12,844 nucleotides of DNA from Candidatus Aenigmatarchaeota archaeon (GTDB lineage Archaea > Aenigmatarchaeota > Aenigmatarchaeia > Aenigmatarchaeales > Aenigmatarchaeaceae): positions 1 to 12,844 of the forward strand of contig JBDRJK010000007.1 of NCBI GenBank assembly GCA_043814985.1. Reading direction: 5' to 3'. The notes under the pieces are model-generated. The model saw only the letters and a list, made by a program, of their open reading frames with translations. It did not search any database and was not told the origin of the DNA. Numbering within the stretch: the stretch's first letter is position 1; each line of letters starts with the position of its first letter. The position numbers and the translations under genes were made by a program. This document shows, piece after piece, positions 942 to 12,744 of the stretch.

Positions 942-960
942 TAGAAAAATCAAGATTTAA
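942..960. repeat. Junction motif copy TAGAAAAATCAAGATTTAA
   Basis: 19/19 identical to 1259-1277. Contains the last codons and TGA stop of ORF 950-1177. Confidence 0.85.
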
Positions 961-1177
961 ACCCTCTTTTTTCATATTCAAATTCCATCTCTTCTTGAAA
1001 ATCTGGCGGGAGAACAAGCCTATTAGCATATTCATAAACATTTGAAAAACTTTTAAAATCCAATTCCTTTATTTTTTCCAGAAGCCCTGCTAATCTGCTT
1101 GCTGTAATACAAGTATAAGGTTTAACTCTCGGTGCTTCTGTACACTCACGAAGACATCCTTTAATTTCTTCAGCCAT
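950..1177 (-). CDS. Hypothetical protein, 75 aa
   Basis: ATG lies 29 nt downstream of a TTAAAT box starting at 1206 on minus. Ends inside the junction motif. Confidence 0.75.
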   Translation of the reverse strand: MAEEIKGCLRECTEAPRVKPYTCITASRLAGLLEKIKELDFKSFSNVYEYANRLVLPPDFQEEMEFEYEKRGFKS

Positions 1178-1213
1178 ACTTAGTTAAAGGAAACAAAACA
1201 ATTTAAACACAAA

Positions 1214-1246
1214 CTAAACGCCGCCGTAGAATGTGAGTGAGACCAT
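1214..1246 (-). pseudogene. 10-codon stump MVSLTFYGGV*, resembling the N-terminus of archaeal MBL-fold/beta-CASP hydrolases
   Basis: ATG lies 31 nt after the TATA within motif 1259-1277. The peptide matches the recalled family start 'LTFYGGVxEIGGN' and then stops. Confidence 0.5.
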
Positions 1247-1258
1247 ACTAAAAATTTA

Positions 1259-1277
1259 TAGAAAAATCAAGATTTAA
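1259..1277. repeat. Junction motif copy TAGAAAAATCAAGATTTAA
   Basis: Its TTA at 1274-1276 is the TAA stop of ORF 1274-1582. Identical to 942-960. Confidence 0.85.
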
Positions 1278-1582
1278 GAATTGATCAAATAGTGTCCGGC
1301 AAGCCCAACCCTTCTGAATACATCTTCGCAGTTGTTGTCTTCTGGAGTTCCGGTACATTCCATGCATGAATTGCAAGCAGTCTGAAGATACTGTTTTGTC
1401 AGCTCCTCTTTCCCAAAGTTCTTTTCAGCATAATCAACAAGGTCCTTTACCATTGTTGCCCTATATTTGCACTTCTCTGTGTTGCATTGTTCAGGGCTGA
1501 CAGTCCCGTCTTTGTGGAAACTTTCAATAATGGCTGCGAATTCCCTTTTGGCTCTTGCCCCAGGCAGGAAATTAAGATTCAT
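1274..1582 (-). CDS. Hypothetical Cys-rich protein, 102 aa, possibly metal-binding
   Basis: Six Cys, including CNSCMEC. TATA at 1611 is 29 nt upstream of the ATG. Confidence 0.75.
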   Translation of the reverse strand: MNLNFLPGARAKREFAAIIESFHKDGTVSPEQCNTEKCKYRATMVKDLVDYAEKNFGKEELTKQYLQTACNSCMECTGTPEDNNCEDVFRRVGLAGHYLINS

Positions 1583-1616
1583 AAAATAATTTTACACATA
1601 AAGCAATTTAAACGGA

Positions 1617-1634
1617 TAGAAAAACCAGATTTAA
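1617..1634. repeat. Junction motif copy TAGAAAAACCAGATTTAA (1-nt deletion)
   Basis: Lies 11 nt after the stop of ORF 1646-2023. 1605-1628 matches 4065-4088 at 20/24. Confidence 0.8.
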
Positions 1635-1645
1635 TATCCTAACCC

Positions 1646-2023
1646 TCATCTCCTGTCTTTGGACATCATGTAAAGAGGCACTGTGATAACCAGACCGACA
1701 AGATTGACAAACAATACAGGATAAATCCAAGTGTATTCAGGGCCTATCCGGCCATGAAGAATGATGGTCATGAATGACCCCTGAATTAAGTATAATACTG
1801 AAAACAAGAATGCTACTGACAGTATGGTCAGATTTCTTTTGTTATCTCCTTCCAAGGCACAGTAAACAGAAAAAAGGCCGGTGGCTAAAAAAATAGCAGA
1901 CCTGTAAAGGGGAAGCGCGACAATTGGAAGGAAGGCAAGCGTATAGAACGAGTAGAGAACTAAGACTATACCCACCACGATCAGGACAAACATCAGGGTC
2001 TCCTTTACTGGAATGTCCTTCAT
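1646..2023 (-). CDS. Hypothetical membrane protein, about 4 TM helices, 125 aa
   Basis: Four hydrophobic stretches. TTATAT box starting at 2053 is 30 nt upstream of the ATG. Confidence 0.8.
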   Translation of the reverse strand: MKDIPVKETLMFVLIVVGIVLVLYSFYTLAFLPIVALPLYRSAIFLATGLFSVYCALEGDNKRNLTILSVAFLFSVLYLIQGSFMTIILHGRIGPEYTWIYPVLFVNLVGLVITVPLYMMSKDRR

Positions 2024-2028
2024 ACTAT

Positions 2029-2460
2029 CTATATAGAAAAACTCAGAATATAAGGTTCGATAGAGGAGAAAACCCTTTGTTTAAGAACACATTCTACCTT
2101 TTCACAGTCGGCTTTTTTGGACCACTCCTCCTTCACATAACCAATTGGAACAAGCCCCTTTGGCGTCCTATCATGCTCGAAGGTGATGCTCTTTATTTTA
2201 GCATTCTCCCCGTTTACTATGGCTGGGAACTTTATCTCAGTTATTACCTTTCCGTAACTTGACCAATCCTTGTCCCTTTTTTCCAAAGTCGTGTTCGTTA
2301 GATTCACATAGACAGTGCCTATTTTTTCAACATCTTTCTTGAGGCAGTCTGTTATTGAGTTCCCTTTCCCCTCCATTCTTTTTAGAAATTCAAAGCCCGA
2401 ATCCCTGTACATTAGTTCAATATCTAAGACATTTAGAAATCTTGGTTTTAGACCTTCCAT
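2029..2460 (-). CDS. Hypothetical protein, 143 aa
   Basis: TATA at 2489 is 29 nt upstream. The C-terminus YILSFSI reads through the junction motif. Confidence 0.75.
   Translation of the reverse strand: MEGLKPRFLNVLDIELMYRDSGFEFLKRMEGKGNSITDCLKKDVEKIGTVYVNLTNTTLEKRDKDWSSYGKVITEIKFPAIVNGENAKIKSITFEHDRTPKGLVPIGYVKEEWSKKADCEKVECVLKQRVFSSIEPYILSFSI
2034..2053. repeat. Junction motif copy TAGAAAAACTCAGAATATAA
   Basis: Overlaps the 3' end of ORF 2029-2460 and forms the promoter of ORF 1646-2023. Confidence 0.7.
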
Positions 2461-2515
2461 ACATTTGTATAGAACCTAAAATAATTTAAACCCTATTTTA
2501 GTAAACAGAGAACCG

Positions 2516-3055
2516 TTAAGATATGTAATTGAGATATTTTTTGCCCAGCCTTTTAAGCTCATCTTCTAATTTTATATTCAATTCCATCTGGCTTGGAGAA
2601 ATATCTTCAAGATCGATTATATCAAAGCCAGTAAAGGGCCCAACCATCATCATCTCAGTGTCAGCTTCGTCGTAGGAAACAGGATGTGCTTTCTTTGCTC
2701 TCTCCTCTTCCTCCTTTAATCTTGAAATAGCGTACCCCCTTTTGTTCAAAAGGTCTTTAATCTCCTTTTCTGTCAAATTCAAGGGCCTTATTCCAAACTC
2801 TTCGTCAAAGAAAGAATCATTCAGTAATGAAAGTTCTTTATCATTAAAACCGGCTCTGACACCAACGCAGATATGGTCATAGCCGTGCGGAGAGGTGAAC
2901 TTTAACCAGAACTGCTCTTCAAGTATTTTGTTTGCCATGATTATGTTGTAGCAGCCATTCTTATCCTTCCCATAGAAATACCCCCATCCTAATGGGTGGT
3001 TATCGTACCTTTTAATCAATTTTTCATTAAATTTTTTTCCTGCCATAATTTCCAT
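2516..3055 (-). CDS. Hypothetical protein, 179 aa
   Basis: TATA near 3084 is 29 nt upstream. Globular composition with C-terminal helix ISPSQMELNIKLEDELKRL. Confidence 0.8.
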   Translation of the reverse strand: MEIMAGKKFNEKLIKRYDNHPLGWGYFYGKDKNGCYNIIMANKILEEQFWLKFTSPHGYDHICVGVRAGFNDKELSLLNDSFFDEEFGIRPLNLTEKEIKDLLNKRGYAISRLKEEEERAKKAHPVSYDEADTEMMMVGPFTGFDIIDLEDISPSQMELNIKLEDELKRLGKKYLNYIS

Positions 3056-3078
3056 GCTTAGAATTGAGAGTAAAACAA

Positions 3079-3105
3079 TTTAAAACTAATTTCAAGCTTA
3101 AATAA
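3079..3105. promoter_or_regulatory. Back-to-back divergent TATA boxes
   Basis: TTTAAAA at 3079-3085 serves ORF 3055(-). TCAAGC-TTAAATAA at 3092-3105 has its TATA 31 nt before ATG 3129(+). Confidence 0.65.
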
Positions 3106-3128
3106 GCATTGAATACAAAAACACAGAT

Positions 3129-3575
3129 ATGAGATACGTAGTCCTCACTGGAATAATTATTATAATATGCCTTCTTCTAATATTCGCCTATGGCATTTCA
3201 GGAAACAAGCAGGCTCGAGTCTGCTTTGAATCCAACTGCTTTGATGTCAGCCTTGCCCTGACACCAGAGGAGCGTTCCCGCGGGCTCATGTTCGTTGAAC
3301 ACCTTGATGATGACAGGGGCATGCTTTTCGTTTTCGACAGGTCCGGCATCTATCCTTTCTGGATGAAGAACACCCTGATTCCTCTGGACATAATATGGCT
3401 TGATTCAGACAGCAGCGTCGTGTTCATTAGCAGGGACACGCAGCCCTGCATATCATCGACATGCGATTCCACAAACCCGGAGAAGCAGGCCAGCTACGTT
3501 CTGGAGATAAATGCAGGCATCTCAGACAGGATGAATATAGATATTGGCGACAAGATGACTATGGTTTTGGATTGA
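3129..3575 (+). CDS. DUF192 family protein with N-terminal membrane anchor
   Basis: Family motifs ERSRGLMF, GMLFVF, FWMKNTLIPLDIIW and YVLEINAG. Confidence 0.92.
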   Translation: MRYVVLTGIIIIICLLLIFAYGISGNKQARVCFESNCFDVSLALTPEERSRGLMFVEHLDDDRGMLFVFDRSGIYPFWMKNTLIPLDIIWLDSDSSVVFISRDTQPCISSTCDSTNPEKQASYVLEINAGISDRMNIDIGDKMTMVLD

Positions 3576-3578
3576 TTA

Positions 3579-3597
3579 TAGAAAAACCAAGATTTTA
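3579..3597. repeat. Junction motif copy TAGAAAAACCAAGATTTTA
   Basis: Fills the gap between two convergent genes and contains the TAA of ORF 3595-4044. Confidence 0.8.
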
Positions 3598-4044
3598 TCT
3601 TTTATCAGCATAGAAGTAAGCTTTCCTTTTAGACCTTTCCTTCTTTAAATAACCCATTATAACAAGTTGGTTCAAGTAGCCGCTTTCAACAGCTCTTGCC
3701 CTTTTGGTTTGCTTAGCAACTTCTTCCGCATTTGCCTTTTCAAGTTTGCAAAGCGTTACAGCTGTCTTTCTTAAATGGTCTGGCAAGCTAAGCAGGTCCA
3801 TTATGCCCATTTTTTCATCTATTATTTCAATATCGGATTTTTCAGTTCTCTCTCTTTCAGAAATCTTAAGTAGAGTGACATAGTTTTGAAATTCCCTGCA
3901 TTCCGGCTTGCTAAAAATACAACGATAAGTATCATCTGGGTCTTTTATTATTCCCCCTTCCTGATTGGGACCCTTACTACTGATATTGCAGTCGTAGCAT
4001 CTTGCCACAAAATTTATTTCTGAATTTTTACTCACATTTATCAA
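3595..4044 (-). CDS. Winged-helix transcriptional regulator with N-terminal Cys-containing domain
   Basis: C-terminal LSLPDHLRKTA...AEEVAKQTKRARAVESGYLNQLVIMGYL is an archaeal wHTH pattern. The N-terminus has CxxC plus two more Cys. TTG start 27 nt after TATA. Confidence 0.8.
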   Translation of the reverse strand: MINVSKNSEINFVARCYDCNISSKGPNQEGGIIKDPDDTYRCIFSKPECREFQNYVTLLKISERERTEKSDIEIIDEKMGIMDLLSLPDHLRKTAVTLCKLEKANAEEVAKQTKRARAVESGYLNQLVIMGYLKKERSKRKAYFYADKR

Positions 4045-4152
4045 GTATAGATAGAATACAAAATAATTTAAACGGATAAAAAGACTGGTTCCTTCATAAA
4101 AAATAAGTTTTGAAATGACTAGAATTTAATAGCTATTGCATAATTGTATTAT

Positions 4153-4938
4153 ATGTTAATGGAAAAATACTGGATGATTGTTGAGGAAGTTATAAACGAG
4201 TCAGACTTTGTCATAGAGGTAGTTGATTCCAGAATGATTGAATCGACCAGGAACAAAAGGGCTGAGGACTATGTCAGAAAAAATGGCAAGCAGCTGATAA
4301 TCGTTGCCAGCAAGTCGGATCTTGTGTCAGAAGAAACTATTGAATATTACAGAAGAAAATTCAGAAGGATCCCATTTTTCTTTGTGTCTGTCAGAGAAAG
4401 GGAAGGAGTCACGCACCTGAAGAAAAAAATGTTTGAGATTATCAAGAAAAGGTCCAAAACCTACATGATAAGCATAAGCGTTATAGGCTATCCCAATACG
4501 GGAAAGTCTTCGTTGATAAATGCCTTGTCAGGAAAGAGAAAGACCAATGTAGGGTCAAAGCCGGGAATGACGAGGAGCATCCAGTGGATAAAATTAGTTT
4601 CCAACATAAGATTCATAGATACTCCAGGCGTCATACCGATGTCAGATGATGACGAGGTAAAGCAGATAATGATGAACACTCTTGACCCTTCGAATTCCAA
4701 CAGGGTTGACGAAGCTGCAAGGGAGATTGTGAAAACACTTTTGAAACACGACAGGGATTCCTTTGAGAAACTTTACAATATCGAGACAAATGGAAAGACG
4801 TTTGAAAAAATTGTTGAAGGTATAGGCAAGTTGAGGAAGATGATGATCAAGGGCGGAAAGATAGACAAGAGAAGGGTTCACCTTAGAATAATAGACGACT
4901 GGCAGAAAGGTAAAATAATAATGAAAAAACAGAACTAG
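4153..4938 (+). CDS. Circularly permuted GTPase, RbgA/YlqF family (ribosome biogenesis)
   Basis: G4-G1-G3 order: SKSD, GYPNTGKS, PGMT, DTPG. Start is ATG 4153 or 4159 given the TATA at 4125-4131. Confidence 0.92.
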   Translation: MLMEKYWMIVEEVINESDFVIEVVDSRMIESTRNKRAEDYVRKNGKQLIIVASKSDLVSEETIEYYRRKFRRIPFFFVSVREREGVTHLKKKMFEIIKKRSKTYMISISVIGYPNTGKSSLINALSGKRKTNVGSKPGMTRSIQWIKLVSNIRFIDTPGVIPMSDDDEVKQIMMNTLDPSNSNRVDEAAREIVKTLLKHDRDSFEKLYNIETNGKTFEKIVEGIGKLRKMMIKGGKIDKRRVHLRIIDDWQKGKIIMKKQN

Positions 4939-4941
4939 AAT

Positions 4942-5079
4942 TTAAGAATCTATCATTTCTAAGAATCTTTTGATTATACCTTCTATCTCCTCTGCAAGCA
5001 TTTCAGCCTTTTGTTCTACCCATTTCTCAAATTTCTCTTCCTTGGTTTTCTTCTTGGCTCGCTTCTTCCTTTTAGGCAT
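4942..5079 (-). CDS. Microprotein, 45 aa, MPKRKKRAKKKTKEEKFEKWVEQKAEMLAEEIEGIIKRFLEMIDS (not in ORF track)
   Basis: Hand-translated. Basic N-terminus followed by an amphipathic helix. A motif half-site lies upstream at 5087, and the stop sits in TCT-TAA-AT context. Confidence 0.65.
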   Translation of the reverse strand: MPKRKKRAKKKTKEEKFEKWVEQKAEMLAEEIEGIIKRFLEMIDS

Positions 5080-5152
5080 AATAATATAGAAAAACCATAA
5101 TAAAAACCAGACGTTTAAACACCGGCTTTAATTCCCCGCAAACCATATATAT

Positions 5153-5263
5153 ATGATGAGAAGAAGCGTAAAGGGACTGACACGCGCGCAAAGAAAAGAG
5201 CTAAAGGGCAAGTGCCACAAAGGAAAAGGCAAGTCTCTTTGCTCCTGGTTCTTCGTGTATTAA
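5153..5263 (+). CDS. Basic microprotein, 35-36 aa, MMRRSVKGLTRAQRKELKGKCHKGKGKSLCSWFFVY (not in ORF track)
   Basis: Hand-translated. TTTAATT at 5127-5133 is 26-29 nt upstream. The ORF fills the gap up to the convergent rpoK stop. Confidence 0.5.
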   Translation: MMRRSVKGLTRAQRKELKGKCHKGKGKSLCSWFFVY

Positions 5264-5266
5264 GCT

Positions 5267-5452
5267 TTATTTGGCACTGCCGGGTCTTTTAACGTCTATT
5301 GGTATTATACCCTTTTCAAACTCCATTTGAGCAATCTCGATTGGGTCCTTCAACTTTGTCTTGACCATTAGCGGAGCTCCCCTTGATATCTGCAGAGCCC
5401 TCGCTCCGACAATCCTTGCTTTTTCAAACCTTGTGTATACCTTTTCTAACAT
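5267..5452 (-). CDS. rpoK: DNA-directed RNA polymerase subunit K (Rpo6)
   Basis: Rpb6/RpoK signature [21 protein letters not shown]...DPIEIA..EF..G.IP. Start is ATG 5452 or 5458. Confidence 0.96.
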
Positions 5453-5466
5453 AATCATCAATCTTT

Positions 5467-5560
5467 TCTGATACAGTGTTTTCGAAATCTAAGCACATGC
5501 TGCTGTAAGGCTTTTCGATCTATCGTCTGTTGTCCTCAGCATGTCGAAATACACATCTGA
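5467..5560 (-). ncRNA. Candidate structured RNA / long hairpin upstream of rpoK
   Basis: Nested complementary arms GTGT/ACAC, TTTCGA/TCGAAA, ACATGCTG/CAGCATGT, AGG/CCT. Strand assignment is inferred from the flanking genes. Confidence 0.4.
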
Positions 5561-5574
5561 ATAAAATTCTATAA

Positions 5575-5664
5575 CTAACCGAATCTCCTTTTGATAAGTT
5601 CCTCTTCTGACCATTCCCTATGCTTATTCAGGGATATCTCCCTTTTTACGAATGTATTAACCAA
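5575..5664 (-). CDS. 29-aa microprotein, copy A, MVNTFVKREISLNKHREWSEEELIKRRFG (not in ORF track)
   Basis: GGTGA SD 5 nt before TTG. 20/29 identical to the paralog at 7330-7419. Confidence 0.8.
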   Translation of the reverse strand: MVNTFVKREISLNKHREWSEEELIKRRFG

Positions 5665-5815
5665 ATTAATCACCCTTAACTCTTCTTAATACCTCAAAGT
5701 TTAGAATAAGAAACAAAATACGATTTCTTATAACTTCAAGTATCTCCTTATAATAAATATGGCGTTCTAACTACTTAAAGCAGTTACTACTGTTTTATAA
5801 TAAAAATTATCAATA

Positions 5816-5834
5816 TAGAAAAACCGGGATTTAA
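5816..5834. repeat. Junction motif copy TAGAAAAACCGGGATTTAA
   Basis: Contains the TAA stop of ORF 5831-6061. Confidence 0.8.
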
Positions 5835-6061
5835 GGATTATTCTTCTTTTCCAATTTCGCAACCCTTCTTTCCAATTCCAGCATATTCTTGCCTAGAATT
5901 TCTATAAGTTCCGCCAATTGAATGTCCCTGTCTTCAGATTTCTTATCCTTAGCACTTTCTCGAGTGTCATGATTCTGCTCTTTGTCCTTTTGCTCCTTTA
6001 GTAACTTTAAGAGTTCATTCAGCCTTTGCTGCGGGGCAACATGCTCCCAGATGTCAGCCAT
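5831..6061 (-). CDS. Hypothetical coiled-coil protein, 76 aa
   Basis: Flanked on both sides by the junction motif. TATA at 6090 is 29 nt upstream. Zipper-like LERRVAKLE. Confidence 0.8.
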   Translation of the reverse strand: MADIWEHVAPQQRLNELLKLLKEQKDKEQNHDTRESAKDKKSEDRDIQLAELIEILGKNMLELERRVAKLEKKNNP

Positions 6062-6071
6062 ACTAAATATA

Positions 6072-6090
6072 TAGAAAAACTAAGATTTAA
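6072..6090. repeat. Junction motif copy TAGAAAAACTAAGATTTAA
   Basis: Occupies the promoter position of ORF 5831-6061. Confidence 0.8.
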
Positions 6091-6129
6091 GATTAAACGT
6101 ACCAAAGACCCGAAACAATTTGCCTGTAA

Positions 6130-6243
6130 TCAGGGATCGTATGCGGTGCCGCATGCCTGGCATATCAAAGCACCGGCCTTCTCGTCCCATTTGAGAACAT
6201 TGTTGAATACCCTGCACCTGCTGCAGCATATCTCCTGAACCAT
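6130..6243 (-). CDS. Stand-alone TFIIB-type zinc-ribbon microprotein, 37 aa (not in ORF track)
   Basis: MVQEICCSRCRVFNNVLKWDEKAGALICQACGTAYDP has the CxxC...D..xG.lxCxxCG pattern. TTTTAT box 28 nt upstream. Confidence 0.75.
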   Translation of the reverse strand: MVQEICCSRCRVFNNVLKWDEKAGALICQACGTAYDP

Positions 6244-6360
6244 TCTAAAAGTTCGGTAGGAAAGGATAAAAGTCTTTTCAGATAATTCAAAAAAATCGTC
6301 TCCTGACGTAGGTGCTATAAAGGCTTAAGAAACTTTCCCTTCAAAAATATTGAAGCCCTT

Positions 6361-6546
6361 CTATTCCTCTATGAAGAAATCGTCCTTCTCGTAGGAATAC
6401 CTGAAATTTGTCCTTAGGTTCATGTCCTTTATCATCCCATTCTCCCAGAACACCATTAATTTACCGTTGAACCTGTCCCTCTTCAGCTTGTCCAGCGCTT
6501 CCTTGGAGAACAATGAGTTAACTTTCTTCCTTTTCATAGAGACCAA
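6361..6546 (-). CDS. Hypothetical protein, 58-61 aa
   Basis: Compact ORF with FNGKLMVFWENG hairpin-like segment. TTG 6546 or ATG 6537 start, TATA-like TTTAAC near 6572. Confidence 0.65.
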   Translation of the reverse strand: MVSMKRKKVNSLFSKEALDKLKRDRFNGKLMVFWENGMIKDMNLRTNFRYSYEKDDFFIEE

Positions 6547-6685
6547 TACTAAAATTCATCTGAATAGTTAAATTGATTTGTCGGCTTGAACACGAGAATT
6601 AGAAAATAACCTCTGCTAAATCAATATCTTGTTCCATATTTTCCGGAAATAGAAAAAATAAAAACTTTCAACCAGAACTATCCTT

Positions 6686-7318
6686 ATGAAGATTGATTCT
6701 AAGGGCAACTCCTGGATAGCAATATCAGAATTCCACCAGCAGTCCTACTGCGAGGTCCAATTAGAGTTCAAGTGGAAGGGAATAAGAATAGAGACAGACG
6801 CAATGAAGAAGGGGACAGCCGTCCACGACCAAAAATTCAAGACATTTGAAGAAAAGACAAAGGGATTAGAAGAAGTGGATATAGTTAATGCAATAAAGCT
6901 GGCTGTGGAAAAGGATGAAAGATTCTCAGGAAGGGAAGTCTTCGTGATATCACCAACATTCAGGATTTTCGGAGTCATTGATTCGATAGAGATAGGGCCA
7001 AATGGCATAATGATAGCTGACGACAAGCCCTCCAAGTATGCCTACCTGTCAGAAAAGTCCCAGGTATTAGGCTATGCAATTGCCTTCAAGGACAAATACA
7101 GGCCTCCAGTTGACATCTTCATCTCGATCAAGAACAGGGACACTGGAGACATAGTCTGGGAGGACGTGTTAACTCAGGAATGGGTCGATTTCATGATGGA
7201 AAAGATTAATAGATTGCATGAACTGGCATTAGGCAAGCGCGAATTTGAACCGACCAAGAATCCCAAGAAGTGTTTGGCCTGTTCTTACAAAAAATTATGC
7301 AAGAAGAAAGTATGCTGA
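6686..7318 (+). CDS. cas4: Solo Cas4-like PD-(D/E)XK nuclease with Fe-S staple cysteines
   Basis: N-terminal YC, GTAVH, E...GVID...DDK, QVLGY and C-terminal CLACSYKKLC. No cas1/cas2 or CRISPR array in the window. Confidence 0.85.
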   Translation: MKIDSKGNSWIAISEFHQQSYCEVQLEFKWKGIRIETDAMKKGTAVHDQKFKTFEEKTKGLEEVDIVNAIKLAVEKDERFSGREVFVISPTFRIFGVIDSIEIGPNGIMIADDKPSKYAYLSEKSQVLGYAIAFKDKYRPPVDIFISIKNRDTGDIVWEDVLTQEWVDFMMEKINRLHELALGKREFEPTKNPKKCLACSYKKLCKKKVC

Positions 7319-7329
7319 AAATAAAAAAG

Positions 7330-7419
7330 CTAACCAAACCTTCTTTTAACCAAGTCTTCCTCTAACCAATCCTTATGCTTCTTCAAAGACTGCTCCCTTA
7401 CCACAAAACAATTAACCAA
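7330..7419 (-). CDS. 29-aa microprotein, copy B, MVNCFVVREQSLKKHKDWLEEDLVKRRFG (not in ORF track)
   Basis: GGTGA SD 5 nt before TTG, with an alternative in-frame ATG at 7425. Paralog of 5575-5664 with the same length and TAG stop. Confidence 0.8.
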   Translation of the reverse strand: MVNCFVVREQSLKKHKDWLEEDLVKRRFG

Positions 7420-7589
7420 ACTCATCACCTACCATTTTTTTATACAAAACATTTCAAGCTTCAGAACAAGCCTAAAAATATTTGTCGAGTATATTATTAT
7501 TGGGTGTCTAGGCATATATAGTACTCTTTTTTGAGAGTTATTTGTTTGGTATACAAGAGAATTAAACACAATTTCAAAAAGAAATTTTA

Positions 7590-8078
7590 TTAAATGCCCA
7601 TTCTGAAAGGATTGCTCTTCTTTCTAGTGACCCTTCTGCCCCCTTCCTTCCAATTAAGCTGTCCGTATTTGAGTCTGTTGAAGATTCTTTCAAAGTTGTT
7701 CTTTGGATAGTATATGTATAATGCCTTCAGGCACATCATTCCCCTGTCAGTAAGAAGGAAAAACTTCTCTCTAGTCAGTTTCATCGATGCTATTATGTCC
7801 ACTTTCTCAAGTTCTTTGAGGTGGTACATTGTTTTTGCGACAGAATTGTTTGTTTCCTTGGCTATCAGAGTCAGATATTTCTTCTCCTTTCTAAGATTCC
7901 TTATTATGTCTCTTTTAATCTCGTCCTTTAGGACATTATTAATCTGGAGCGGCGCTTCTTTAATGTCCACATATTTTTTAGAGAAGTGCTTTCGCCTGAA
8001 CAGATAAGACATGACTGACATGAATGCCACGCCTCCTACCCCTGCTGCTACCAGCATCGTTATTGTGTCGTACACCAT
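7590..8078 (-). CDS. Membrane-anchored winged-helix (ArsR-like) regulator
   Basis: N-terminal TM segment, then IIRNL...LTLIAKET...MYHLKELEKVDII...FLLTDRG. ATG 8078 lies 29 nt after TATA at 8107, preferred over TTG 8090. Confidence 0.85.
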   Translation of the reverse strand: MVYDTITMLVAAGVGGVAFMSVMSYLFRRKHFSKKYVDIKEAPLQINNVLKDEIKRDIIRNLRKEKKYLTLIAKETNNSVAKTMYHLKELEKVDIIASMKLTREKFFLLTDRGMMCLKALYIYYPKNNFERIFNRLKYGQLNWKEGGRRVTRKKSNPFRMGI

Positions 8079-8100
8079 ATAGAAGTTCAAGTTCCTAACT

Positions 8101-8173
8101 TATTTAAACTTTATTAAAAGTTTATAAAACTTTATAAAGTTTCATAAAACTTCATGGACTTCTATCAAGCTTT
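8101..8173. repeat. About 7 degenerate 10-bp tandem units (TTTATAAAAC-like) with internal dyads; candidate operator array
   Basis: tatttaaact ttattaaaag tttataaaac tttataaagt ttcataaaac ttcatggact tctatcaagc. Includes the palindrome AAACTTTATAAAGTTT. Confidence 0.7.
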
Positions 8174-8534
8174 GTTTGTTCATCTGAATGGAGCCTTTAT
8201 AAGTGGTTTTTCAGGCAGTAGATTTGTATGGGCATTCAGTCCAATGAAATATTTTTTTTAATTGAGGATAAAAAGGAGGTGGATGTTATGGATGAAGATC
8301 CAGAATAGAGTGAAAACACAGAATAACACAAACAACAAACCGGGCTAGAGGCTCGTTTCATATCCGGGCCTGTGAAAGCACTACTTCTGTTTTTTAAATA
8401 TCAACATCCAACAGCCATTATAGGCATTGATAAAATTAAAGGCAATTTAAAATGACAAGAGATATTATTAAGGAAATAGCAAAGTGTAAGTATAGGTGGT
8501 CAGCCCTCGTGGCAGATCCGAAAGAGTGACCTAA

Positions 8535-8759
8535 ATGCAAAACCAGGAACTTGAGACAACAGAAATGAGTGAAACATTAGAAAGACTGATATATTTGAGA
8601 AAAACATGCTTTAATCTTTTTTTACAGAATTATAATTGTGTACAGAATTACAACGACTATGTTCATTACACATCAGAAATCGAGAGATACTGCAATGAAA
8701 AAGGAATTCCTAACACTTATTGTACTGACCTTACAAAGAGATTGAAGGTGAAAAAATGA
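8535..8759 (+). CDS. Hypothetical protein, 74 aa
   Basis: Only reasonable ORF here. Four Cys, no recognisable family. Confidence 0.55.
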   Translation: MQNQELETTEMSETLERLIYLRKTCFNLFLQNYNCVQNYNDYVHYTSEIERYCNEKGIPNTYCTDLTKRLKVKK

Positions 8760-8994
8760 ACGACAAAAAGATATTCCCAAATAAAAAAGACGTGTAAAGA
8801 ATATACGAATGTTGAAAGCATATCATAATAGCAACATACTCTGTTGGATTTTTGTTTGCTTTCAAAACATTTATGTTCCCGCAGCAGCATCTGTCATAAA
8901 TCTTTATTCCTCCCATTGCTACTGAAGGAAACCCGGTGCCCCCTATTTCTCCAACGGCGTGCGAACAGTTCCGCCACGTCCTTGTCTCGCCCAT
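8731..8994 (-). other. TATA-driven transcript: doubtful 87-aa ORF or structured RNA
   Basis: ATG lies 29 nt after TTAAAT at 9023. The 5' half is GC-rich with hairpins, and the 3' end overlaps the convergent ORF by 29 nt. Confidence 0.35.
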
Positions 8995-9051
8995 GATTGA
9001 TTAAGAAACACAAAAAAATTTAAGCTTTCTGTATGAAAAATGAGCATATTA

Positions 9052-9315
9052 TCAGGCGTACATGTTGGGGTCATCATCAACCTCTTCATCAACCAAGAAC
9101 CTCCTGTTCCTGTAAATGCCCTCGTATTTGCTGCTGTTTACAAACAAAGAGGGGTTCATGTAGGAGCGTGGCAGATAGCTTTCTTCCCCTTGTGTGCTAC
9201 CACAGTACATGCCGCCAGATAGGTGCCCTGTCCCTTGTGTGCTGTTATTCTCCTTTTCATCAATGTTCCCTGCAGCCTCCCCCCGTCCGCTTATGTCGAA
9301 CATGCTGCGGAGCAT
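9052..9315 (-). CDS. Hypothetical, probably disordered protein, 87 aa (MLRSMFDISG...DDDPNMYA)
   Basis: GGGGTGA SD just upstream of ATG 9315, preferred over the track's GTG 9513. Confidence 0.6.
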   Translation of the reverse strand: MLRSMFDISGRGEAAGNIDEKENNSTQGTGHLSGGMYCGSTQGEESYLPRSYMNPSLFVNSSKYEGIYRNRRFLVDEEVDDDPNMYA

Positions 9316-9603
9316 AATATCACCCCTGTCTGGAATGCCAAGAAAAACATTCTTTTTATTTGAGAGCAATGCAGCGTTGCAACCTATCCGACCAGTTGCA
9401 TTAGTTTGTGGAAGAAGTGTTGCTATTTTTTTCTTCACATTTCTTTGGGGTAGCCTTTTACCAGTCCCACCCGCCAAATAATTCGTTTTTCCCTTTAACA
9501 TAAAGGACTGCACGCCCTCCCTAGAGGTATAAGAGAAATTGATAGCATATATTATTTAAAGCAATCACTTCAAGCTTAAATTCTAATAATGACTTTTATT
9601 TGT

Positions 9604-10203
9604 ATGTACGTGGTCTGTCTTGACTTTGAGAGCATACTGGTGCCTGAGATATGGATAAGCGTTGCCGAGAAGAAGAACGTTCCTGAGCTTAGCCTGACAA
9701 CTAGAGACATCCCCGATTATGACGCGCTTATGAAGAAGAGACTGGAAATCCTAAAGGAACACGACATTAGTTTGGATGAAATACAGGAAGTAATCGGAAA
9801 CATGGAACCATTAGAGGGAGCAGTTGAATTCCTTAATTGGTTAAGGCAGCGATGCCAGGTAATAATTCTATCGGGTAGTTTCTACGAGTTCGTCGCTCCT
9901 CTGATGAAGAAGATGGGCAACCCCACAATATTCTGCAACTGGTTGGTTGTTGACAATAACAGTTCTATCAATAACTATGTGATGAGGCAGAGCAGCGGCA
10001 AGATGGAAGCTGTCAAATCCTTGAAATCCTTAGGATTCAAGGTGATTGCAGTGGGAGACTCTTACAACGATGCTGACATGCTTGAGGCAGCTGATGTTGG
10101 CATCCTCTTCAATGCTTCTGATAACATGAAAGAAGAATTCCCACAATTTTCTAGTGCAGATGATTATCAGGAACTGAAAGCTGTTATAAAAAAATACATA
10201 TGA
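9604..10203 (+). CDS. thrH: Phosphoserine phosphatase / homoserine phosphotransferase ThrH (HAD family)
   Basis: CLDFESILVPEIW, TTRDIPDYDALM, ILSG.FYEF and GDSYND motifs. ATG 9604 is 28 nt after TTAAAT at 9576. Confidence 0.9.
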   Translation: MYVVCLDFESILVPEIWISVAEKKNVPELSLTTRDIPDYDALMKKRLEILKEHDISLDEIQEVIGNMEPLEGAVEFLNWLRQRCQVIILSGSFYEFVAPLMKKMGNPTIFCNWLVVDNNSSINNYVMRQSSGKMEAVKSLKSLGFKVIAVGDSYNDADMLEAADVGILFNASDNMKEEFPQFSSADDYQELKAVIKKYI

Positions 10204-10428
10204 TTACATCAGGTCTTCCCTTTTCAGCCTGTCATAGTTCTTTCTCGAGTGAACATTGTCAACCAAGGCTATGCCGCACTCAGGACAGGCCGGTTTCTTG
10301 AATATCATACCTATCTTCTTGGAGCAGTCAAAACAGAATATCTTTAGACATCTAGTGCACTGGTGTCCCGAGGGCTTGAACAGAGTGCCAACTTCCTTTT
10401 CGCATAAAGAGCAGAATCCCTTTGCCAT
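10204..10428 (-). CDS. Small zinc-finger protein with four CxxC motifs (RING/FYVE-like), 74 aa
   Basis: CSLC, CTRC, CFDC, CPEC. TATA at 10456 is 28 nt upstream. Confidence 0.85.
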   Translation of the reverse strand: MAKGFCSLCEKEVGTLFKPSGHQCTRCLKIFCFDCSKKIGMIFKKPACPECGIALVDNVHSRKNYDRLKREDLM

Positions 10429-10437
10429 AGGAATAAA

Positions 10438-10456
10438 TAGAGATATTAGGATTTAA
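10438..10456. repeat. Degenerate junction motif copy TAGAGATATTAGGATTTAA
   Basis: Provides the stop of ORF 10453-10809 and the TATA of ORF 10204-10428. Confidence 0.6.
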
Positions 10457-10809
10457 GAATTTTGGTCCTTTCCAAGATGTTTTTTCAGACTCTTCACACT
10501 CTTTGTATCAAGCGGTTTGTAGTGATAAGAATCCACCACATCCATTGCCCTCGGGTATGGTGGGTGTTCAGGTGATACCTCTATCATAGGTGGTGGAACA
10601 AATACCAGACTATCACAATCTTCTAGAGGACATGACAAATCTGTTCCACTGGTCAACATTCCAGCCAGTTTTTTCATGGTCATACATTTTTTACTGAAGT
10701 AAAAAGAATTTTCACCATCATTGATGTGATAAAAAATCTTCTCTTCAGTTTCACAATATGGTTTAGACCATTCAACATCCACCAAGCATACGAGTACATC
10801 CTTAGGCAT
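10453..10809 (-). CDS. Hypothetical protein, 118 aa
   Basis: TATA at 10838 is 29 nt upstream. Stop lies in the motif. Confidence 0.75.
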   Translation of the reverse strand: MPKDVLVCLVDVEWSKPYCETEEKIFYHINDGENSFYFSKKCMTMKKLAGMLTSGTDLSCPLEDCDSLVFVPPPMIEVSPEHPPYPRAMDVVDSYHYKPLDTKSVKSLKKHLGKDQNS

Positions 10810-10834
10810 AACAAAACTAAGGTCAGAAAATAAT

Positions 10835-11014
10835 TTAAGGCTTAACTTTACAAAACTGAACTATAACATCACAAGAACAATTATACATGATTGATTTGCC
10901 GTTTGGGCAATAACTCAGACCAACACAAGCACCATCGATATGGAATGCAGGGCAGTATGACTGTTTCATTGCCTCTTCAAGGCTGCTGTATTCGCTTTTC
11001 ATCACACTTTCCAT
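10835..11014 (-). CDS. 6-Cys microprotein, 59 aa (not in ORF track)
   Basis: MESVMKSEYSSLEEAMKQSYCPAFHIDGACVGLSYCPNGKSIMYNCSCDVIVQFCKVKP. Starts 2 nt after the upstream stop, and its TAA is the next gene's TATA. Confidence 0.65.
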   Translation of the reverse strand: MESVMKSEYSSLEEAMKQSYCPAFHIDGACVGLSYCPNGKSIMYNCSCDVIVQFCKVKP

Positions 11015-11016
11015 TT

Positions 11017-11253
11017 TTATTCTTCCCAGTCCACTTCATTTGTTGGTTTGGCAACCTTCATCTCAACCCTTTTCAGATATGAGAGGACAGAAAAGCCGAA
11101 CATGAGGAATGCTACTCCAATAAAGCCCATTATGAACAGGTCCCATTCGCTCAAGTCTGGGGCCTTGCCTGATGCCTCAACAATAGAGCCCATTATGAAA
11201 CCTAGAAAGAAGAAACCAGCTGTTATGGCAGTGTAAACTCCCAGGTATTTCAT
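11017..11253 (-). CDS. Small 2-TM membrane protein, 78 aa
   Basis: Two hydrophobic helices. TATA at 11282 is 29 nt upstream. Confidence 0.8.
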   Translation of the reverse strand: MKYLGVYTAITAGFFFLGFIMGSIVEASGKAPDLSEWDLFIMGFIGVAFLMFGFSVLSYLKRVEMKVAKPTNEVDWEE

Positions 11254-11263
11254 ACTAAAGAAT

Positions 11264-11297
11264 TGGAAAAACCAGCATTTAAATCAGGCTTAAATAA
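11264..11297. promoter_or_regulatory. Junction motif copy TGGAAAAACCAGCATTTAA plus divergent TATA
   Basis: TTTAAA-TCAGGC-TTAAATAA places two TATA boxes 6 nt apart, 29 and 28 nt from divergent ATGs. Confidence 0.7.
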
Positions 11298-11317
11298 TTT
11301 TTCAGAACACTTTTATT

Positions 11318-11587
11318 ATGTCTGATCGCAAAAGATTACCTGATACAAGATTACCAATCATATTAAGTATTGTTGGAAAAGAAGGCAAAATAATCTATGA
11401 AAATTTAGTTCGAAAACTGGAGCACAGGTCATTTGAGAGAATAAGTTATGAAAGAAAGAGAATTTATCTTTCCAGGATAATAGACGATATAATGGAAAAA
11501 AGGAAACTAATTAGATTTACAAATCATGACCCACCAATGATTGAACTGACAGAAGAAGGAAGAAGGCAAATTGATTATCCGTTCTAA
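11318..11587 (+). CDS. Small winged-helix-like protein, 89 aa
   Basis: C-terminal LI...IELTEEGR wing motif. TATA 28 nt upstream. Confidence 0.7.
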   Translation: MSDRKRLPDTRLPIILSIVGKEGKIIYENLVRKLEHRSFERISYERKRIYLSRIIDDIMEKRKLIRFTNHDPPMIELTEEGRRQIDYPF

Positions 11588-12744
11588 TTTTTAATGTCTT
11601 CTCTAAGCATCAGCAGCAGTCCGATGAATATTATTGCAGCTGAAATCAGGCCTAGGAATCCTGGGAAGAAATAGCTTATGACAAACCCTCCCAATAGAGG
11701 ACCGATTATCTGGGAAATGCTCATGAGTGAGTTGGTGACTCCCATCAGGGCGCCCTGCTTCTTTGAGGAAACTATCCTTGATATGCTGCCTTGAAGAACT
11801 GGTCTTGAGACGCCTGAACCGAAAGCGAACAAAGACAATATTCCTATTAATGAAATCCACTCATTTGCGAAAGCAGACCAAAGCATTCCTATCATTATTG
11901 AAATCATCCCAGCATATTTCAGATTTTTCTCCCCGAACCTGTTTATCATCTTAGGAAGAAAACTCATTATTATGATACTGAGAAAGCCTATGTAGGTTAG
12001 CGAGTAGCCTATGTCAGTTGAGTCAAGGCCCATCTGCTTCTGAGAGAACAATGCGAATGTGCTGACCCATACAGCGAATGATAGGGCATAGGTGAAGAAC
12101 TCCCATAGCCTTGGGGACAGCTTCTTGTTGGAGAAGAACTTCCTAAAGTCGTTGAAGTGGAATATTTTTATGCTGAACTTTATCTTCTCCTTTCTCTTGA
12201 CTGTTTCCGGGAGGAAGAAGAATATTATTAAAAGTGTTGCGAATGATACCGCCGCCGCAAGCATGGAAGGCAACTGGTAATTGAATTGGGAAAGGAAGCC
12301 GCCAATTCCAGGACCAACAAGGAAGCCCAGACCGAATGCTATGCCGCTTATGCTAAAGGCTTTTGACCTGTCCTTTTTTGTTGATATGTCCGACAAATAT
12401 GCTTGGGATATGGTAAAGTTGCTTCCGAAAAGACCGTCAATTATCCTTGATAGGAAAATCATCCATAAGGAATTGGCAAAACCCAGAACAACGAATCCAA
12501 TGAATGTGGCAAACTGTGATATTAACAACAAAGGCTTCCTACCGTACTGGTCGCTGAGCCTCCCCATTATGGGAGCAGAGAGGAACTGGAAAAATGAGAA
12601 CGTTGTCAATAATAATCCAATAACTAACGGGCTTGCACCGAACTCCTGCGCATAGAAGGGAAGGAACGGCAATATCAGCGAGAATCCCATGGTCTCGGTG
12701 ATCAAGACTATCATTATTGTAATGTGTTCTTTGCCAAATTTCAT
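11584..12744 (-). CDS. MFS transporter, DHA1/TetA-like drug:H+ antiporter family
   Basis: About 12 TM segments, with ILPFLP, motif A GRLSDQYGRKP and motif C GFLVGPGIGG. Confidence 0.93.
   Translation of the reverse strand: MKFGKEHITIMIVLITETMGFSLILPFLPFYAQEFGASPLVIGLLLTTFSFFQFLSAPIMGRLSDQYGRKPLLLISQFATFIGFVVLGFANSLWMIFLSRIIDGLFGSNFTISQAYLSDISTKKDRSKAFSISGIAFGLGFLVGPGIGGFLSQFNYQLPSMLAAAVSFATLLIIFFFLPETVKRKEKIKFSIKIFHFNDFRKFFSNKKLSPRLWEFFTYALSFAVWVSTFALFSQKQMGLDSTDIGYSLTYIGFLSIIIMSFLPKMINRFGEKNLKYAGMISIMIGMLWSAFANEWISLIGILSLFAFGSGVSRPVLQGSISRIVSSKKQGALMGVTNSLMSISQIIGPLLGGFVISYFFPGFLGLISAAIIFIGLLLMLREDIKN

What the first reader, a model, noticed from the sequence alone, without database searches (positions are those of the whole stretch)
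942..11282. A ~19-bp motif marks orphan-gene junctions: candidate gene-cassette system whose site is also stop codon, U-tract and TATA box
Seen: TAGAAAAAYYARGATTTAA (minus strand TTAAATCYTRRTTTTTCTA) at 942, 1259 (identical to 942), 1617, 2034, 3579, 5816, 6072, 10438 and 11264, with partial copies near 4077, 4926 and 5087. All have the same orientation and sit at a boundary of a short minus-strand gene. It supplies the stop at 950, 1274, 3595, 5831 and 10453, and is the TATA 28-31 nt before the next ATG at 1246, 2023, 6061, 10428 and 11253. Copies at 942, 3579 and 5816 have no gene start at that spacing. A second signature, AAA(A/G)YAATTTAA, marks orphan 5' ends near 1195, 1600, 2478, 3072, 4060 and 10827. 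Established: archaeal TATA boxes and oligo-U terminators are normally short and degenerate, so 19-bp identity exceeds what they require. Inference: either self-contained promoter+ORF cassettes are inserted or shuffled at these sites (integron-like, but without attC), or it is a lineage-specific fused terminator-promoter or protein-binding element.
Basis: partly seen in the sequence, partly recalled or inferred. Interest (0 to 1): 0.85.

Follow-up and report, generated by a model that had tools for sequence, protein, structure and literature searches.

The report
Promoter repeats that shuffle archaeal genes
A short repeated promoter sequence in the chromosome of an uncultured, small-genomed archaeon marks points where small genes are swapped in and out between strains and genera, much as in some phages, and no dedicated recombinase for it was found.

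Summary
The motif is real (7 hits against 0.13 expected). On the minus strand it is a leaderless archaeal promoter (TATA 29 nt before ATG). It precedes 6 of 51 genes in one variable region and 0 of 900 elsewhere. Of 371 Aenigmarchaeota genomes, it is multi-copy in 9, all in three genera of one family. Relatives show it is a gene-exchange junction: 152 of 161 neighbouring copies are co-oriented, and filled and empty alleles exist, one empty site being chimeric. It is not an integron: no attC, no IntI, and crossovers spread along the repeat. Best reading: a chromosomal analogue of T4 PeSL cassettes, shuffled by short-homology recombination. Caveat: motif-free junctions also break often (odds ratio about 1.9). 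A rare solo Cas4/Exo5-like nuclease (6686-7318) usually lies nearby and may drive this, which is unproven. The scan noted similar junction repeats in other archaea and their viruses, but not this element.

The parts
942..960 (-). Motif A, terminal copy; holds the stop of the 75-aa gene; no ATG at promoter spacing
   Evidence: the homologous gene ends at motif A in G001 and G020 with unrelated downstream DNA, and again in L081
950..1177 (-). 75-aa cargo gene, between motif B and motif A
   Evidence: 73% DNA match to G001 running from B to A, window 942-1211; map
1195..1208 (-). Motif B (second promoter-type repeat), ATG 30 nt downstream
   Evidence: stub-to-B junctions also occur in G001 and G002
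1214..1246 (-). 5' stub (10 codons, then stop) of a 487-aa beta-CASP/MBL-fold nuclease gene; the full gene was not found in this assembly
   Evidence: first 30 bp identical to a stub in G001
1259..1277 (-). Motif A, promoter-type copy in front of the stub; holds the stop at 1274
   Evidence: score 32.3
1600..1613 (-). Motif B, directly joined to the degenerate A copy at 1617
1617..1634 (-). Motif A with a 1-bp deletion (weak)
   Evidence: sequence; score 3.1
2034..2052 (-). Degenerate motif A, ATG 29 nt downstream (weak)
   Evidence: score 7.1
2478..2491 (-). Motif B
3072..3085 (-). Motif B
3579..3597 (-). Motif A, terminal copy, facing the convergent DUF192 gene
4060..4073 (-). Motif B
5087..5105 (-). 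Right half of motif A behind a different TATA-like stretch; ATG at 5079
   Evidence: score 7.9
5816..5834 (-). Motif A, terminal copy; homology with relatives starts or stops here
   Evidence: 5485-5834 in G001; 5830-6079 in G002; read joint 12754 to 5798 in two runs
5831..6061 (-). 76-aa cargo gene bounded by motif A on both sides
6072..6090 (-). Motif A, promoter-type copy
6686..7318 (+). Solo Cas4/Exo5-like nuclease, candidate processing enzyme (link inferred)
10438..10456 (-). Motif A, stop at 10453 and ATG at 10428
10827..10838 (-). Motif B variant
11264..11282 (-). Motif A, promoter-type copy; a contig of one run joins 11282 to 11591, skipping the convergent gene

Best explanation
Motif A is a roughly 30-bp leaderless promoter (BRE, TATA, T-tract, ATG) that is repeated many times in one variable chromosomal region. 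There it serves as a short patch of homology for recombination. A crossover between two co-oriented copies deletes, inserts or swaps the 1-3 genes between them and leaves a chimeric copy. A gene that lands behind a copy gets a promoter, and the T-tract probably ends the transcript before it, so the products stay viable. Motif B and the 5' end of a beta-CASP gene appear to be used in the same way, which points to general short-homology recombination (RadA or single-strand annealing) and not to a site-specific recombinase. New DNA seems to enter by one-sided joins that cut a copy short in or after its T-tract. Tyrosine-integrase elements that carry A-bounded genes could ferry cassettes between cells. 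Shown by comparison: exchange at the motif, filled and empty alleles, spread of crossovers, three repeat classes. Inferred: promoter and terminator activity, the enzyme, circular intermediates, the capture step, the vehicle.
For: Promoter geometry: genome-wide TATA at -30..-24 and A-rich BRE at -35..-32; ATG exactly 29 nt after TTAAAT in 30 of 79 sites from relatives. Restriction: 6 of 51 region genes against 0 of 900 others; multi-copy in 9 of 371 genomes, all in three genera of one family. Exchange: among 233 distinct sites, 39 pairs share only the upstream flank, 57 only the downstream flank and 16 both. A 158-bp A-gene-A unit is identical in L121 and L128 with both flanks different. One site is empty in L164 and filled with different 1.5-kb and 1.8-kb inserts in L142 and L131, and the empty copy is a left/right chimera. 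Six of 12 indels are A-bounded. 48 of 84 breakpoints at 90% identity or more lie at an A window, which covers 1.4% of bases. 152 of 161 neighbouring copies are co-oriented. Crossovers: a uniform spread fits better than the best fixed point (log-likelihood -344.9 against -350.3; 21 thinned pairs). Stubs: 11 in G001 keep an 11-bp core unchanged while upstream codons differ mostly silently (26 synonymous, 8 other). Reads: joints at 11282, 5798 and 941/1259.
Against: Per junction the enrichment is modest: 39 of 89 motif junctions broke against 41 of 141 others at 90% identity (odds ratio 1.9, p 0.02). At 95% it was 15 of 60 against 16 of 103 (p 0.15), and the pairs are not independent. Five of 12 indels have no motif. 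The metagenome loci were chosen for carrying the motif. The crossover estimate rests on 4 upstream and 17 downstream pairs, and point mutation can mimic a chimera. 14-30 bp is short for RecA-family exchange (recalled). Of 233 sites, 82 have no ATG at promoter spacing and 31 of those face a convergent gene, so promoter function alone does not explain why they persist. No circular junction was seen, in contig data only.
Confidence: 0.62

Rival explanations
1. Integron-like system: a site-specific recombinase acting in trans, such as the tyrosine integrases of resident elements, uses motif A as its site.
For: Co-oriented array, and conservation of 21 bp across three genera. A sites lie near tyrosine integrases in G000 C19, L017, L111, L126, L137 and L165; in L111 the integrase stop overlaps the motif. 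Copies persist in front of reverse-oriented genes.
Against: No PF00589 match in G001 (89% complete, 7 contigs) or G013, which both carry arrays. The three integrases scanned score 23-43 bits against an integron-integrase cut-off of 265. No attC boxes (1 of 233 against 2 in controls) and no hairpin (mean z -0.19). No resolvase, IS110 or Cas1 in 5 of 5 genomes searched. Crossover ranges of single pairs do not overlap (10-20, 22-23, 23-25, 28-31). Three unrelated repeats are used.
Confidence: 0.13
2. The motif is only a lineage-specific promoter or operator of accessory genes. Breakpoints fall at it because random rearrangements survive only if promoters and terminators stay intact.
For: Perfect promoter spacing. 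Motif-free junctions also break often, 41 of 141. A 5-bp inverted repeat lies inside the motif. An earlier scan note read a similar DPANN repeat this way.
Against: Filled and empty alleles with one extra copy and a chimeric empty site. An identical A-gene-A unit sits in different contexts. The inverted repeat shows no compensatory change (3 double changes in 233 sites, about 3 expected). The downstream genes are unrelated to each other. This reading does not explain the beta-CASP stub arrays.
Confidence: 0.17
3. CRISPR-like or casposon-like capture: DNA is integrated at the motif, and the motif is duplicated as a target-site repeat.
For: Reverse-oriented inserts between co-oriented copies. The copies at 942 and 1259 are identical. 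A Cas4-like gene lies nearby.
Against: No Cas1 in 5 of 5 genomes searched. Adjacent copies are hardly more alike than non-adjacent ones (3.5 against 3.8 mismatches; 82 and 181 pairs). The stubs differ at synonymous sites, which local duplication and decay would not give.
Confidence: 0.05

Closest known systems
PeSL promoter/terminator cassettes of T4-type phages (PMC2839356, passages read; PMC4122927, abstract read)
   Same: Co-oriented promoter-type repeats between small orphan genes in a hyperplastic region; indels that leave one chimeric motif; crossovers within the promoter-to-ATG stretch; no dedicated recombinase known.
   Different: Here the host is a cellular archaeal chromosome; there is no stem-loop; the elements are TATA/BRE; some cargo is reverse-oriented; three repeat classes are used, one of them a coding 5' end; and the repeat is shared across three genera. 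Mini-circles were shown for PeSLs and not here.
TATA-plus-inverted-repeat motif of haloarchaeal virus HGTV-1 (PMC3950731, passage read)
   Same: An archaeal promoter motif in front of many ORFs, proposed to shuffle them.
   Different: It is viral and has an inverted repeat, and the passage only suggests shuffling. Here exchange is seen by comparing genomes.
Integrons and CALINs, including archaeal ones (bioRxiv 10.1101/2022.02.06.479319, passages read)
   Same: An array of small mobile units with one site per unit and one orientation; toxin-antitoxin-type cargo between the stubs.
   Different: No attC, no IntI, no fixed insertion point; the site is itself the promoter.
Tandem integrated islands that restore the target gene with a replacement fragment (recalled), and homology-facilitated illegitimate recombination (recalled; one search gave a search listing only)
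   Same: Gene-end stubs from other alleles pile up beside the intact gene, at the 5' end in G001, G002, G008, G010 and G017 and at the 3' end in G004.
   Different: The units are mostly under 3 kb with no integrase, and the target is a beta-CASP gene, not a tRNA gene.
Solo Cas4 nucleases (PMC5704561, passages read)
   Same: A CRISPR-independent Cas4-family protein in a DPANN genome, with four invariant cysteines and nuclease residues.
   Different: The passages I read link solo Cas4 to no cassette array. They describe it as common in DPANN and mostly vertically inherited, which weakens the link seen here.

Membership tests
Integron / CALIN | Integron integrase (IntI) | tested here: not met
   Two of the three PF00589 matches of G000 and one from L111 score 23-43 bits against cut-off 265; the third G000 match, at a contig end, was not scanned; no PF00589 match in G001 or G013
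Integron / CALIN | attC site with paired R boxes and a bottom-strand hairpin | tested here: not met
   R-box pair (consensus recalled) near 1 of 233 sites against 2 in control windows; mean folding z -0.19 over 118 strands of 59 sampled sites, 14 below -2
Integron / CALIN | Fixed crossover point | tested here: not met
   A spread fits better than the best fixed point by 5.4 log units; 21 pairs only
Integron / CALIN | Co-oriented array of site-bounded mobile units | tested here: met
   152 of 161 neighbours co-oriented; filled and empty alleles
PeSL cassettes | Promoter-type repeat at orphan-gene boundaries in a hyperplastic region | tested here: met
   by sequence only
PeSL cassettes | Terminator stem-loop | tested here: not met
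   No folding signal around the sites; a T-tract only
PeSL cassettes | Indels between copies that leave a chimeric motif | tested here: met
   L164 against L131 and L142
PeSL cassettes | Mini-circles | not testable with these tools
   Only assembled contigs were available
PeSL cassettes | Located in a T4-type phage genome | tested here: not met
   Chromosomal region of an archaeon; two IMG/VR scans gave one hit each, both inside coding sequence
CRISPR/casposon-type integration | Cas1-family integrase | tested here: not met
   0 of 5 genomes
CRISPR/casposon-type integration | Target-site duplication | tested here: not met
   Adjacent copies 3.5 mismatches against 3.8 for non-adjacent
Regulon operator of a dimeric factor | Palindrome kept by compensatory change | tested here: not met
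Regulon operator of a dimeric factor | Binding by a transcription factor | not testable with these tools
   Needs a pull-down or footprint
Solo Cas4 nuclease (window 6686-7318) | Cas4/RecB-like fold with four Fe-S cysteines and no cas1 | tested here: met
   Invariant C22, C196, C199, C205, D99, D112, K114 in 45 aligned homologues; model pLDDT 94.6 matches human Exo5 and Cas4; no Cas1

The most novel reading that the evidence does not exclude
This is a dedicated gene-capture platform without an integrase. A solo Cas4/Exo5-like 5' nuclease kept inside the region resects DNA ends so that 14-30-bp repeats (two promoters and the ends of a beta-CASP gene) anneal, a natural counterpart of recombineering. 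Each captured gene is switched on by the repeat it lands behind, and three genera share one cassette pool. This would give solo Cas4 of DPANN archaea a first concrete role.
Probability: 0.2. Interest if true: 0.92.

Novelty: new variant of a known kind. Interest (0 to 1): 0.72.

Why it matters
It shows one route by which a reduced, uncultured archaeon gains, expresses and reorders small unknown genes without an integron. It extends PeSL-type shuffling from phages to a cellular chromosome, with comparative evidence (filled, empty and chimeric sites). It gives a sequence handle for finding cassette genes across three genera. It also yields a testable role for solo Cas4, a protein described as common in DPANN and functionally uncharacterised (PMC5704561).

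Tried and rejected
Topoisomerase IB as the driver: present in only 4 of 41 genomes, and not found in G000, G013, G019 or G020, which are motif-rich; treated as cargo. Reverse transcriptase: 2 of 5 genomes, one of them motif-free. ComEC: 0 of 5, so the DNA uptake route is open. The beta-CASP gene as a required part: not found with this query in G000, G003, G013, G019 or G020. Viral origin: two IMG/VR pattern scans gave only in-gene chance hits. Known RNA: no Rfam match in the window. tRNA att sites: a tRNA was found in 3 of 24 loci scanned and in none of the three G000 integrase stretches. Cas4 link outside the family: the six distant homologues (31-38% identity) have no A, B or stub mark in the fetched stretches. 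De novo repeat finding there showed no clear co-oriented array, but it was insensitive (4 copies in the positive control), so this is inconclusive. Expression: no RNA holder was listed, which is no evidence either way. The 941-to-1259 and 1279-to-2471 read joints rest on one contig each, with short sides, and are weak. A single-sequence structure model was useless (pLDDT 32). Literature searches for this element listed nothing that describes it by title or abstract start; the library lacks most subscription papers and I opened no supplements. Scan look-ups by place and by sequence returned nothing.
Full report
Observation. The pattern matches 7 times in the window, all on one strand, against 0.13 expected. 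The copies at 1617, 2034, 5087 and 4926 are weak, and 4077 is unsupported. The window is the whole of contig C7 of an 808-kb, 21-contig genome, and its end overlaps contig C12 by 141 bp. Record titles and source names place the family in Ca. Aenigmarchaeota.

It is a promoter, but not the general one. My own gene calls (951 genes) show TATA at -30..-24 and an A-rich BRE at -35..-32 before ATG. Read on the minus strand, motif A fits this: ATG lies exactly 29 nt after TTAAAT in 30 of 79 sites from relatives, and 23 of 79 have no ATG within 45 nt. In G000, 14 sites score 18 or more against 0 in reversed sequence. At promoter spacing the motif precedes 6 of 51 genes in the C6/C7/C12-start/C14-start region and 0 of 900 outside. 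I defined that region after seeing the hits. The second signature (motif B) has 7 of 9 matches there, with 0.3 expected. Promoter activity is inferred, not measured.

Distribution. With one mismatch the motif occurs in 13 of 371 genomes of the phylum: 9 in three genera of one family (8 with four or more copies or two, G001 with one by this pattern) and 4 single hits elsewhere. An exact scan of the genome collection gave 33 stretches. These mix family members, single hits in unrelated bacteria (three inspected, no array), and short contigs in bins of other taxa whose proteins match the family at up to 88%. A metagenome scan gave 78 loci, 39 of them with two or more copies.

It is an exchange point. 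Among 233 distinct sites from relatives, G000 and the metagenome loci, 39 pairs share only the upstream flank, 57 only the downstream flank and 16 both. At 90% identity or more the counts are 7, 12 and about 15. The window's 75-aa gene ends at motif A in G000, G001, G020 and L081, with different DNA following in each. A 158-bp A-gene-A unit is identical in L121 and L128 while both flanks differ. One site is empty in L164 and holds different inserts in L142 (about 1.5 kb, two copies) and L131 (about 1.8 kb, left copy cut short). The L164 copy matches the left copy at position 7 and the L131 right copy at 11 and 17. Of 15 indel rows, which collapse to 12 events, 6 are A-bounded, 1 has a copy inside and 5 have none. 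Neighbouring copies are co-oriented in 152 of 161 cases. Contigs from four runs show joints at 11282 to 11591 (X4), 12754 to 5798 (X1, X2) and, weakly, 941 to 1259 (X1).

Results against. 48 of 84 breakpoints lie at an A window covering 1.4% of bases, but breakpoints fall between genes anyway. Counted per junction, 39 of 89 motif junctions broke against 41 of 141 others (odds ratio 1.9, p 0.02). At 95% identity the difference is not significant, and the pairs are not independent. Several 'motif-free' breaks lie in truncated copies that fall below the score threshold (by eye), but many do not. The whole region is fluid.

How the exchange happens. For 21 thinned pairs, single-pair crossover ranges do not overlap (10-20, 22-23, 23-25, 28-31). 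A uniform spread over positions 0-31 fits better than the best fixed point (-344.9 against -350.3). Adjacent copies are hardly more alike than others, so target duplication is unsupported. There are no attC boxes, no hairpin and no palindromic covariation. Tyrosine recombinases were not found in G001 or G013, and the three integrases scanned are not IntI. Cas1, resolvase, IS110 and ComEC were found in 0 of 5 genomes and reverse transcriptase in 2 of 5. Topoisomerase IB occurs in 4 of 41. These genomes are 81-91% complete, so absence is not proven.

A third repeat. Window 1246-1214 is the first ten codons of a 487-aa beta-CASP/MBL-fold nuclease gene. G001 has 11 such stubs in about 13 kb upstream of the intact gene, each followed by different cargo. 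G002 and G008 have two each, and G010 and G017 one each. A decayed stub lies in G003. G004 has two in-frame 3' stubs downstream of its gene. In G001 the core positions 15-25 never differ from the resident gene, while upstream codons differ mostly silently (26 synonymous, 8 other). The stubs are therefore old 5' ends of other alleles, left by crossovers in a shared core (inference). Seven stubs are followed within 27 nt by motif B. The window's stub-B-gene-A unit equals G001's stub-B-gene-B-gene-A less one B-bounded gene. Cargo between stubs includes toxin-antitoxin-type pairs. Three unrelated repeats acting as junctions argue for homology-driven exchange.

Candidate enzyme and vehicle. The solo Cas4-like gene at 6686-7318 has intact cysteines and nuclease residues, and it models as Exo5/Cas4. 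Close homologues occur in 13 of 21 family genomes, including all with motif arrays or stubs, and in 19 of 371 phylum genomes. It lies within 10 kb of an A, B or stub mark in 9 of those 13; three of the others are on contigs under 10 kb. In G000, 15% of positions are that close to a mark. One ancestral location could explain all of this, the six distant homologues show no marks, and solo Cas4 is common in DPANN (PMC5704561, passages). The link is suggestive only. A sites also lie in tyrosine-integrase elements (G000 C19, L017, and 4 of 78 metagenome loci), which could carry cassettes between cells.

Comparison. The closest system is the PeSL of T4-type phages. Its promoter/terminator repeats bound orphan genes, recombine to leave chimeric copies and form mini-circles, with the enzyme unknown (PMC2839356, passages; PMC4122927, abstract). 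A similar motif was proposed for haloarchaeal virus HGTV-1 (PMC3950731, passage). Archaeal integrons have attC and a canonical insertion point (bioRxiv 10.1101/2022.02.06.479319, passages), which this lacks. It works like a PeSL but is not one: no stem-loop, not a phage. Four searches found no description of this element. Earlier scan notes report similar junction repeats in Bathyarchaeia and archaeal viruses; they are unchecked and concern other sequences.

Verdict. Real, and a new variant of a known kind; interest 0.72. Best reading 0.62, promoter-only 0.17, site-specific in trans 0.13, target duplication 0.05.

Noticed in passing
L031:14170-15909; also G003:C11, G008:C23, G017:C4: A eukaryote-type topoisomerase IB (three Pfam domains) occurs in only 4 of 41 relatives, each time inside the motif-rich region.
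   Followed up: partly
window 5267-5461: A second RNA polymerase subunit K (RpoK) gene, 90% identical in DNA to the copy on contig C21; relatives also carry a copy in this region.
   Followed up: partly
L050:19913-20000 onward (G004:C7:49913-50949): Two in-frame 3' stubs of the beta-CASP gene begin at the same codon and resemble another genus's allele more than the resident gene.
   Followed up: partly
window 5575-5674 and 7330-7429: Two 100-bp stretches are 72% identical; relatives match both regions. They may be decayed copies of a small gene.
   Followed up: no
window 8095-8160: A palindromic, repeated AT-rich stretch upstream of the helix-turn-helix gene 7590-8090, probably its operator.
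   Followed up: no
L081, L085, L071, L076: DNA of this family sits in bins labelled as other taxa. L081 switches abruptly from a transporter gene to a family cassette end, so it is probably chimeric or misbinned.
   Followed up: partly
L018:13668-13832 and 16 homologues: Small treble-clef zinc-finger genes (PF23477), often with acidic N-termini, recur in reverse orientation next to motif A, sometimes twice per array.
   Followed up: partly
L196 (G004:C7:10001-30000 and beyond): Genus g2 has its own repeated promoter variant related to motif A, on both strands.
   Followed up: partly
L200 (G000:C9:12986-13603): A reverse transcriptase in a 581-aa frame in the window's genome; its type was not determined.
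   Followed up: no
L185:2999-3376: A cluster of short palindromic repeats in a distant genome that has a Cas4 homologue.
   Followed up: no
L032:18876 onward; L018:3265-5483: The intact beta-CASP gene is followed by a MazG-like gene and a Schlafen-group helicase gene in G001 and G008, and has DNA methylase and DUF6996/6997 genes close by in G017, a defence-island-like setting.
   Followed up: no
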